From Dictyostelium discoideum (lineage: Eukaryota), in NCBI GenBank assembly GCA_000004695.1, contig CM000155.2:128001-192000 (forward strand): a stretch of DNA of 64,000 nucleotides, read 5' to 3'. Under the pieces are notes generated by a model. It saw nothing but the letters and a program-made list of their open reading frames with translations. It was not told the origin of the DNA and did no database searches. Positions 49,191 through 51,375 of the stretch are shown piece after piece. The stretch's first letter is position 1, and every line of letters begins with the position of its first letter. The translations under genes and the position numbers were made by a program.

Positions 49191-51304
49191 TTAATGTTGA
49201 AGATTACTTCTCTGTCTTGGAGCAGCTCTTAAGATATCATCAACTCTCATGATCATTTCAGCGGCTTCGTGAGCAGATACTAAAACTTGTTGTTTAACTT
49301 TAAATGATTCAATGACACCTAATTCTTCAGCATTTCCAATACAACCATCTCTCATGTTGAGACCAGCTTTTTTATCACCTTGATGATGGGCAGCTTTTAA
49401 TTGAGAGACTAATTCTGAACTATCGTAACCGGCATTATTAGCAATGATTGTTGGAATTTGACGAAGAGCTTTGGCAAAAGATTCGATAGCCATTGCTTTC
49501 TTACCTGGAGTGATTGCAGCCAATTCATCGACAGCTTTACTCATGATCATCTCTGAGCAACCAGCACCTAAAACAGTACGAGTTTCAGCTACAGTTACAG
49601 CCAACACACAGAGTGCATCGTGAATGGAACGTTCAGCCTCTTCGAGAATGTGAGAGGTAGCACCACGTAAAACGATGGTACAAGCCTCACCAGATGGAAT
49701 ACCAGAGAAACGGATGACCTTATCTTCACCGATCATAACCTCTTCAATGAGTTTACAAGTGCCAATCTTGACCAATTCAGGGTGATCAAAAGTTGAGACG
49801 ATTTCAGCGCCAGTTACCAAAGCCAAACGTTCAATACCATCGAAATCTGCATGTTCAATTGACATAACACCATGCTCGGCGAAATATTGCTCTGGTAAAT
49901 TATAGACCAATTGACGATTGACGAAACAATTGATACCATGATCAACGATCTTTTTACATTTATTCAACATTTTCTCTTTTTCTGCATCTTCCATTTTGGC
50001 GAGTTCAGTCATTGAATCTACAACAACCTTACCACCGAAAATCTTAATCTTATCAGTATCCATAGCTGTGTTTGCAATTAAAATCTTTGGATTCTCTAAA
50101 CGTTTTGGACAACCAACACCAATCTTCTTTTCTAAAATGAATCCTTCATCTAAATAGGACTCTCTTAATGAACCACCACTCTTCTTTATAATATGAATAT
50201 TATCTAAATTGGTATTTCCATTTAATCTTAAAACTGCATCAACTACCATATTTGCGAAATGATCTTTCTCTGTATGTAAAATCTTTGAACTTAATGTTGT
50301 TCTTGCTATATTTAATAAATCTTCTCTAAATTTAACTATATATATTAATTAAAATTTATATATATATATATATAACAATATTAATAAATTATCATTATCA
50401 TTATCATTATCATTATCATTAATTATTTGTGTTTTGTTTGTTTTGTGTTTGTTGTTTTACCTTTATCTGAAGAATGATCTTGAGTTGATGATTGTAATGC
50501 AGCACGTGCAGTTTCAAGTGCTAATCTCCAACCACTAATAATAGTTTGTGGATGAACTTTTTGTTGAACTAATCTTTCACCCTCTCTTAATAATTCACCA
50601 GCTAAAACACAGACACTGGTTGTACCATCACCAACTTCATCATCTTGAGTTCTTGAAATATCTACTAAAATCTTTGCGGCTGGATTATCGATATAAATTT
50701 TGGTCAAGATGGTAGCACCATCATTTGTAATAATTAATTCATTTGGATTTGATGCTGAAATAAGAATTTTATCCATACCCTTTGGTCCTAAAGTTGTTTT
50801 TACTAAATCTGTAATTGCAATTGCACCAACAAATGATGACTGAAAATTTTTTTTTTTAAAAAAAAAAAAAAAAATTATAATAAAAAAAAAGACAATTTCA
50901 TAAATATATATGTGTGTGTGTGTAAATGTTTGTATATATTGTTGTTTTTATATGTTTGGGTTTGTTGTTTTCCATTTTGTTTTTTTGTTTGTTTTTATTT
51001 GATTGAAAATTAATATATATATATACATAAAATGTTAGGGATAAAACAAAGTGTAAGTATGTATTTCTAAATGAATAATTGTTGTTAAAAAAAGTAATTT
51101 TATATTTACCAAACGAGCAATTTCACCTCTTTCTTCAGAGGCATTTTGATTTAAAATTGGTATTGGAGCTAATTGACTCTTTAAGAGTTAAAATAATAAT
51201 GTTAGTTATCTTTAGTGTGGTGATTGTTTAATTTTTTCTATTTTTTCGTTGATTAAAAAAAAAAATTAAAAAAATATGAAATATAAACCGATACATACTG
51301 ACAT
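49191..51304 (-). CDS. cct2: T-complex protein 1 subunit beta (CCT2/CCT-beta chaperonin); exons 49191..50335, 50461..50839, 51109..51178 (contains an apparent +1 frameshift) and a putative ATG-TCA micro-exon 51299..51304
   Basis: Near-identical block-by-block match to human/yeast CCT2: '[26 protein letters not shown]...NDGATIL...[25 protein letters not shown]...', '[18 protein letters not shown]', '[27 protein letters not shown]', '[28 protein letters not shown]', '[11 protein letters not shown]...LHDALCV', '[28 protein letters not shown]'. All internal junctions checked. The N-terminal exon is discussed in findings. Confidence 0.8.
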
Positions 51305-51375
51305 TGTTATATATATAAAATTATATAATTACAAATTAAAAAAAACAAAGTCGACACCTTTTTTTTTTATAAATC

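What the first reader, a model, noticed from the sequence alone, without database searches (positions are those of the whole stretch)
51100..51310. CCT2 N-terminus: conserved reading frame interrupted by a single extra T, plus a putative ATG-TCA micro-exon
On the minus strand upstream of the 'SSFVGAIAI' exon there is a 70-nt exon (51109-51178).
- In one frame it reads '[20 protein letters not shown]', which aligns with human and yeast '[10 protein letters not shown]...DEERAE(T/N)'.
- After one extra T (a TTTT run at 51120-51123 on the plus strand; TTT would restore the frame) it reads 'ARL' and splices to 'SSFVGAIAI'. The universally conserved 'EERAENARLSSF' block is therefore split across two frames.
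- As written, the only in-frame start is the ATG at 51142-51144 (minus). It gives a truncated, non-conserved '[12 protein letters not shown]...'.
- Upstream, 'ATGTCA' is followed directly by 'GTATGT' (51293-51304 on the plus strand). Spliced to the AAAG acceptor at 51179-51182, it would give '[11 protein letters not shown]...', matching human '[12 protein letters not shown]'.
- This is either a homopolymer-length sequencing error, a strain polymorphism in an essential gene, or a genuine N-terminal remodelling.
Basis: partly seen in the sequence, partly recalled or inferred. Interest (0 to 1): 0.55.

Follow-up and report, generated by a model that had tools for sequence, protein, structure and literature searches.

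The report
Intact CCT2 gene; frameshift was miscounted

Summary
The finding makes two claims.

**1. Frameshift: not in the sequence.**
- The plus strand at 51118-51124 reads C-A-A-T-T-T-C. That is TTT at 51121-51123, not TTTT at 51120-51123.
- Exon 2 is 69 nt (51178..51110, minus strand), not 70.
- It reads [23 protein letters not shown] in a single frame and splices in phase to SSFVGAIAI.
- The ATG at 51144 is out of frame. Spliced to exon 3, it stops after 23 codons.

**2. Two-codon first coding exon: real, but already annotated.**
- The exon is ATGTCA|GTATGT (51304-51299), joined to AAAG|AGT at 51178.
- The four-exon model gives 532 aa, identical residue for residue to XP_635161.1 / Q54ES9, the CCT beta subunit of D. 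discoideum AX4.
- An independent D. discoideum assembly has the same bases.
- The intron after codon 2 is present at the same position in six other dictyostelid species, with a candidate in an eighth. It is absent in P. violaceum, where ATG-ACA-AGT-CAA is contiguous.
- In T. lacteum, three RNA-derived contigs show this intron spliced out.

**Verdict:** an ordinary, already annotated gene start. Interest is low.

The parts
51299..51304 (-). Coding part of exon 1: ATG TCA (Met-Ser). The 5' UTR of the same exon extends upstream; the transcription start was not determined.
   Evidence: It is followed directly by the donor GTATGT. It is the only phase-0 ATG...|GT candidate in the 975 nt upstream of exon 2. 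The model built on it is identical to XP_635161.1 / Q54ES9.
51179..51298 (-). Intron 1: 120 nt, phase 0 after codon 2, 18% G+C. Donor GTATGT, branch-point-like ACTAAC at 51206-51201 (24 nt from the 3' splice site), acceptor TTAAAG.
   Evidence: The same intron position is found in D. firmibasis, D. citrinum, D. purpureum, C. fasciculata, A. subglobosum and T. lacteum, with a candidate in H. album. RNA contigs in T. lacteum show the orthologous intron spliced out.
51110..51178 (-). Exon 2: 69 nt, 23 codons, [23 protein letters not shown] in one uninterrupted frame.
   Evidence: It aligns without a gap to human CCT2 residues [23 protein letters not shown].
51119..51124 (+). Site of the alleged extra T. 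The plus strand reads AATTTC (minus strand GAAATT, Glu-Ile). The T run has three bases, not four.
   Evidence: Base-by-base print-out. The sequence is identical in the independent assembly GCA_054883475.1 and in D. firmibasis, D. citrinum, D. purpureum, P. violaceum and C. fasciculata, which all read GGTGAAATTGCTCGT.
50840..51109 (-). Intron 2: 270 nt, phase 0, GTAAAT...TTTTCAG.
   Evidence: An intron at this position is present in six of the eight other species examined. It is absent in T. lacteum and H. album.
50461..50839 (-). Exon 3: 379 nt, [14 protein letters not shown]...SSDK.
50336..50460 (-). Intron 3: 125 nt, GTAAAA...TATATAG.
49191..50335 (-). Exon 4: 1145 nt, running to the stop codon TAA at 49193-49191.
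   Evidence: The whole protein matches TIGR02341 chap_CCT_beta at 881 bits against a cut-off of 522.

Best explanation
The region is the intact 5' end of the Dictyostelium discoideum gene for CCT beta (cct2, subunit 2 of the TRiC/CCT chaperonin), on the minus strand.

The gene has four coding exons: 51304-51299, 51178-51110, 50839-50461 and 50335-49191. Translation starts at the ATG at 51304. After two codons (Met-Ser) a 120-nt spliceosomal intron is removed. It carries a GTATGT donor, an ACTAAC branch site and an AG acceptor. The reading frame then continues without interruption through [23 protein letters not shown] into SSFVGAIAI.

There is no frameshift; the reported extra T was a counting error.

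Shown here:
- the base sequence and the continuous frame;
- identity of the model to the reference protein;
- conservation of the intron position;
- splicing of the orthologous intron in T. lacteum RNA contigs.

Inferred:
- that the same splice is used in D. discoideum mRNA, because no D. discoideum transcript was available to me;
- the transcription start.
For: - **Sequence at the alleged frameshift.** The plus strand at 51118-51124 is CAATTTC. The 69-nt exon translates as [23 protein letters not shown] in one frame.
- **Gene model.** The four-exon model has 1599 nt, divisible by 3, with no internal stop and 532 aa. An exact-sequence look-up finds it as EAL61663.1 / XP_635161.1 / UniRef100_Q54ES9, 'chaperonin containing TCP1 beta subunit [Dictyostelium discoideum AX4]'.
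- **Family identity.** It matches human CCT2 across residues 3-528 at E = 1e-235, with no gap over the N-terminus. It scores 881 bits against TIGR02341 chap_CCT_beta (cut-off 522), covering profile positions 2-519 of 519.
- **Independent assembly.** D. discoideum assembly GCA_054883475.1 has the same exon 1, intron 1 and exon 2 bases, although the two assemblies differ elsewhere (99.4% identity over 8.1 kb).
- **Uniqueness of the start.** Only one phase-0 ATG...|GT candidate exists in the 975 nt upstream of exon 2. Exon 2 itself has no in-frame ATG, and a stop codon lies 2 codons upstream of its acceptor.
- **Conservation.** ATG-NNN|GT followed by AG|A(G/A)T... occurs at the same codon position in D. 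firmibasis, D. citrinum, D. purpureum, C. fasciculata, A. subglobosum and T. lacteum. In most of them an ACTAAC-like element lies 24-41 nt from the acceptor.
- **Contiguous version.** P. violaceum has ATGACAAGTCAATTACAACC without an intron, encoding MTSQLQP.
- **RNA evidence.** Three Logan contigs from separate runs (ERR3252991, ERR3252993, ERR3252994) match the T. lacteum genome at 99.9-100%. Each lacks exactly the 92-nt GTAAGA...AATAG intron after ATGACT.
Against: - I had no D. discoideum cDNA, EST or RNA-seq read across the 51299/51178 junction. The splice in this species rests on the reference annotation, sequence signals and comparative evidence.
- I could not confirm from any paper that the ERR32529xx runs are RNA libraries. 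That is inferred from their contigs being intron-less.
- The H. album first coding exon is only a candidate: its donor GTAAAC is weak and the intron would be 427 nt.
Confidence: 0.97

Rival explanations
1. A real one-base insertion (sequencing error, strain polymorphism or N-terminal remodelling) splits the conserved EER..ARLSSF block across two frames.
For: No tool result does.
Against: - The T run has three bases and the frame is continuous.
- The model has no frame break and equals the reference protein.
- The same bases occur in an independent assembly and in five other species.
- The protein aligns to human CCT2 without a gap.
Confidence: 0.01
2. There is no upstream coding exon. Translation starts within or after exon 2, either at the ATG at 51144 or at Met47 of the model, giving an N-terminally truncated or altered CCT2.
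For: An ATG exists at 51144-51142. Automatic annotation of T. lacteum did choose an internal Met (P0136).
Against: - The ATG at 51144 is out of frame and stops after 23 codons once spliced.
- Starting at Met47 would delete the conserved block that aligns to human residues 4-47.
- The T. lacteum RNA contigs show that the internal-Met model there is too short by 10 residues.
- The N-terminus M-[ST]-x-x-L-x-P is conserved in all dictyostelid orthologues.
Confidence: 0.02

Closest known systems
D. discoideum cct2, T-complex protein 1 subunit beta (XP_635161.1, UniProt Q54ES9, TCPB_DICDI)
   Same: The four-exon model from the window is identical to it over all 532 residues, including the Met-Ser encoded by the 6-nt coding first exon.
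   Different: Nothing differs. The window is this locus.
Human CCT2 in solved TRiC/CCT structures (e.g. PDB 6qb8 chain b, 7lum)
   Same: It aligns over residues 3-528 at E = 1e-235. The N-terminal block [32 protein letters not shown] aligns without a gap to [32 protein letters not shown].
   Different: The start is MSS instead of MAS.
Start-codon-proximal introns of intron-poor unicellular eukaryotes
   Same: This is a phase-0 intron in the extreme 5' part of the coding region, with a strong donor and an ACTAAC-type branch site. [quoted passage not shown]
   Different: No functional role for this particular intron, such as in expression level, was tested.

Membership tests
CCT/TRiC beta subunit (TIGR02341 chap_CCT_beta; Pfam PF00118 Cpn60_TCP1) | Full-length match to the subunit-specific equivalog model above its curated cut-off, and better than to any other CCT subunit model | tested here: met
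   TIGR02341 scores 881.2 bits against a cut-off of 522.15, covering profile positions 2-519 of 519. The next CCT subunit model (eta) scores 398.6 bits, below its own cut-off. PF00118 scores 551.8 bits.
CCT/TRiC beta subunit | Closest solved structures are CCT2 chains, aligned end to end | tested here: met
   All 7 PDB sequences with E <= 1e-100 are 'T-complex protein 1 subunit beta'. Human CCT2 aligns over residues 3-528.
CCT/TRiC beta subunit | Assembly into the hetero-oligomeric TRiC ring and ATP-dependent folding activity | not testable with these tools
   This needs biochemistry. It is inferred from orthology only.
Spliceosomal (U2-type) intron, for intron 1 at 51179-51298 | GT donor, AG acceptor, branch-point consensus upstream of the acceptor, and frame preserved after removal | tested here: met
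   The signals are GTATGT ... ACTAAC (branch A 24 nt from the 3' splice site) ... AAAG. Removal joins ATG TCA to AGT CAA in phase 0.
Spliceosomal (U2-type) intron, for intron 1 | Removal from mature mRNA | tested here: inconclusive
   Removal is shown for the orthologous intron of T. lacteum in three RNA-derived contigs. No D. discoideum transcript was available.
Frameshifted gene or pseudogene | A reading-frame break within conserved coding sequence | tested here: not met
   The frame is continuous through 51110-51178, and the complete 532-codon ORF has no internal stop.

The most novel reading that the evidence does not exclude
The intron placed after codon 2 has been kept at the same position in at least seven, probably eight, of nine dictyostelid species spanning the major groups of the clade. 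Other cct2 introns come and go: intron 2 is lost in T. lacteum and H. album. This retention might reflect selection, for example intron-mediated enhancement of expression of a highly expressed housekeeping gene, rather than mere 5'-biased retention. My evidence neither supports nor excludes this.
Probability: 0.12. Interest if true: 0.2.

Novelty: already known. Interest (0 to 1): 0.04.

Why it matters
It matters little biologically. The gene is intact and is annotated exactly as the sequence reads.

The practical value is twofold.
- It removes a false alarm about a frameshift in an essential chaperonin gene.
- It shows that first coding exons of only six bases are easily missed by automatic gene prediction. 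The deposited T. lacteum model lacks the first 10 residues. The deposited H. album model is fused to the upstream Dus gene. Both are correctable from this comparison.

Tried and rejected
- **Search for D. discoideum N-terminal fragments.** I searched the protein collection with the first 151 residues, hoping to find RNA-derived D. discoideum fragments spanning the exon junctions. Nothing closer than 72% identity was listed in the best 120 hits, so no D. discoideum transcript evidence came from it.
- **Exact look-up of the 532-aa protein.** It returned only genomic sources. The one Logan member of the cluster (P0009, 352 aa, contig of 1257 nt or less) has the length expected for an ORF starting at the first Met of genomic exon 4, so it is probably uninformative.
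- **Literature.** Three searches were made: Dictyostelium start-proximal introns, the run accession ERR3252991, and the D. discoideum genome paper. The first gave nothing specific, the second no paper, and the third is not held. A general review supplied the statement on 5'-biased introns.
- **Considered and rejected.** The ATG at 51144 as start: it is out of frame. Any other upstream ATG plus donor: none exists in phase. A strain polymorphism at the T run: an independent assembly is identical there.

Full report
**Observation**

I read 48500-51800 on the minus strand and printed the disputed bases one by one.
- On the plus strand, 51118-51124 is C A A T T T C. The T run covers 51121-51123 (three bases).
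- On the minus strand the exon runs from A51178, just after the AAAG acceptor at 51182-51179, to G51110. The donor GTAAAT follows, starting at 51109.
- The exon is 69 nt, not 70. In one frame it reads AGT CAA TTA GCT CCA ATA CCA ATT TTA AAT CAA AAT GCC TCT GAA GAA AGA GGT GAA ATT GCT CGT TTG, which is [23 protein letters not shown].
It aligns with Thr of human CCT2 in a gap-free alignment.
- The ATG at 51144-51142 is in another frame. It reads [11 protein letters not shown], and when spliced to exon 3 it terminates after 23 codons.

**Gene model**

- Joining 51304-51299, 51178-51110, 50839-50461 and 50335-49191 gives 1599 nt with no internal stop and a product of 532 aa.
- An exact-sequence look-up finds this protein as EAL61663.1 / XP_635161.1 / UniRef100_Q54ES9, 'chaperonin containing TCP1 beta subunit [Dictyostelium discoideum AX4]'.
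- The window is therefore D. discoideum, and the two-codon first coding exon is already in the reference annotation.
- The protein scores 881 bits against TIGR02341 chap_CCT_beta (cut-off 522) over the whole profile. It scores far lower against every other CCT subunit model.
- It matches PF00118 and human CCT2 of the solved TRiC structures over residues 3-528 at E = 1e-235.

**Is the first coding exon more than a chance ATG next to a GT?**

- Exon 2 has no in-frame ATG, and a stop codon lies 2 codons upstream of its acceptor. A start codon must therefore come from an upstream exon.
- In the whole 975 nt between exon 2 and the neighbouring divergent gene there is exactly one ATG followed, in phase 0 and without a stop, by a GT. 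It is ATGTCA|GTATGT at 51304.
- Intron 1 is 120 nt with 18% G+C. It has a consensus-like donor, an ACTAAC element whose branch A lies 24 nt from the 3' splice site, and an AG acceptor.

**Independent assemblies and relatives**

- A separate D. discoideum assembly (GCA_054883475.1, locus L001) is 99.4% identical to the window over 8.1 kb, with 16 mismatches and 8 gaps. It is identical through exon 1, intron 1 and exon 2, including GGTGAAATTGCTCGT. This excludes an assembly-specific homopolymer error or a polymorphism between these two genomes.
- I fetched the orthologous loci of eight other dictyostelids. Their first coding exon and intron 1 are as follows.

| Species | Exon 1 \| donor | Intron 1 |
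|---|---|---|
| D. firmibasis | ATGTCA\|GTATGT | 184 nt |
| D. citrinum | ATGTCA\|GTATGT | 204 nt |
| D. purpureum | ATGTCA\|GTAGGT | 201 nt |
| C. fasciculata | ATGACT\|GTATGT | 172 nt |
| A. subglobosum | ATGACT\|GTATGT | 148 nt |
| T. lacteum | ATGACT\|GTAAGA | 92 nt |
| H. album (candidate) | ATGACT\|GTAAAC | 427 nt |
| P. violaceum | none: ATG ACA AGT CAA TTA CAA CC is contiguous, encoding MTSQLQP | no intron |

- P. violaceum gives the same N-terminus without any splicing assumption.
- All dictyostelid orthologues with a complete model begin M-[ST]-(S/N)-x-L.

**Transcript evidence**

- For T. lacteum, three contigs assembled from separate public sequencing runs (ERR3252991, ERR3252993, ERR3252994; loci L007-L009) carry an uninterrupted 533-codon ORF.
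- They match the genome (L010) at 99.9-100% in two blocks. Together the blocks omit exactly the 92-nt GTAAGA...AATAG segment after ATGACT.
- This is direct evidence that the orthologous intron is spliced. It also shows that the real first exon includes at least 62 nt of 5' UTR, so 'micro-exon' describes only its coding part.
- I found no D. discoideum transcript in the resources available. For this species the splice therefore rests on annotation, signals and conservation.

**Comparison with what is known**

- This is the known gene cct2 with its known structure.
- Nothing about the N-terminus is remodelled.

**Verdict**

The frameshift is a reading error. The two-codon first coding exon is real, conserved and already annotated. 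Novelty: already known. Interest: very low. The only useful by-products are two evident mis-annotations in relatives (T. lacteum and H. album) and some conserved promoter-region motifs, listed under things noticed in passing.

Noticed in passing
L010:1379-1510 (T. lacteum genome) and L007:63-100: The deposited T. lacteum CCT2 model (P0136, 523 aa) starts at an internal Met. RNA-derived contigs encode 533 aa, with ten extra N-terminal residues MTNTLQPVQI. The annotation missed the 6-nt coding first exon ATGACT and its 92-nt intron.
   Followed up: yes
L012:1001-6036, candidate start at L012:3926: The deposited H. album protein P0140 (853 aa) looks like an artefactual fusion of the upstream Dus (tRNA-dihydrouridine synthase) gene with CCT2. 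A candidate true start, AAAATGACT|GTAAAC, lies 427 nt upstream of exon 2 (AG|AGTCAATTACAACC).
   Followed up: partly
L005:1501-1580; L010 and L012 around the ARL/SSF junction: Introns are gained or lost within the family. Intron 1 is absent in P. violaceum. Intron 2, between ARL and SSF, is absent in T. lacteum and H. album but present in the other six species examined.
   Followed up: partly
window 51346-51359 (-) and 51466-51481 (-): Two G+C-rich islands lie in the otherwise 10-16% G+C intergenic region, which CCT2 shares with the divergently transcribed synaptobrevin/longin gene.
- AGGTGTCGACTTTG lies about 45 nt upstream of the ATG, after a TATAAAAA box and a long T run.
- GGCCACAGCAATGGCC lies further upstream.

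Each occurs once in the window. The first is conserved in D. citrinum and D. firmibasis. The second is conserved in D. citrinum and appears in reverse orientation in D. firmibasis (CCATTGCTGT...CCCAAA). They are possibly promoter elements; their function was not tested.
   Followed up: partly
window about 52965-54179 (-), 52154-52762 (+), from 48179 downward (-): The neighbouring genes are a Dus-family gene, a synaptobrevin/longin gene and a family-3 GPCR (ANF_receptor + 7tm_3). The synaptobrevin-CCT2-GPCR order is kept in D. firmibasis, D. citrinum, D. purpureum and P. violaceum. It differs downstream of CCT2 in C. fasciculata, and on both sides in T. lacteum.
   Followed up: no
window 50370-50440 (-), inside intron 3: Intron 3 contains a (GATAAT)n run and an (AT)n run. 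Intron 2 contains a (CA)n run near 50920. These are ordinary simple repeats in AT-rich introns.
   Followed up: no
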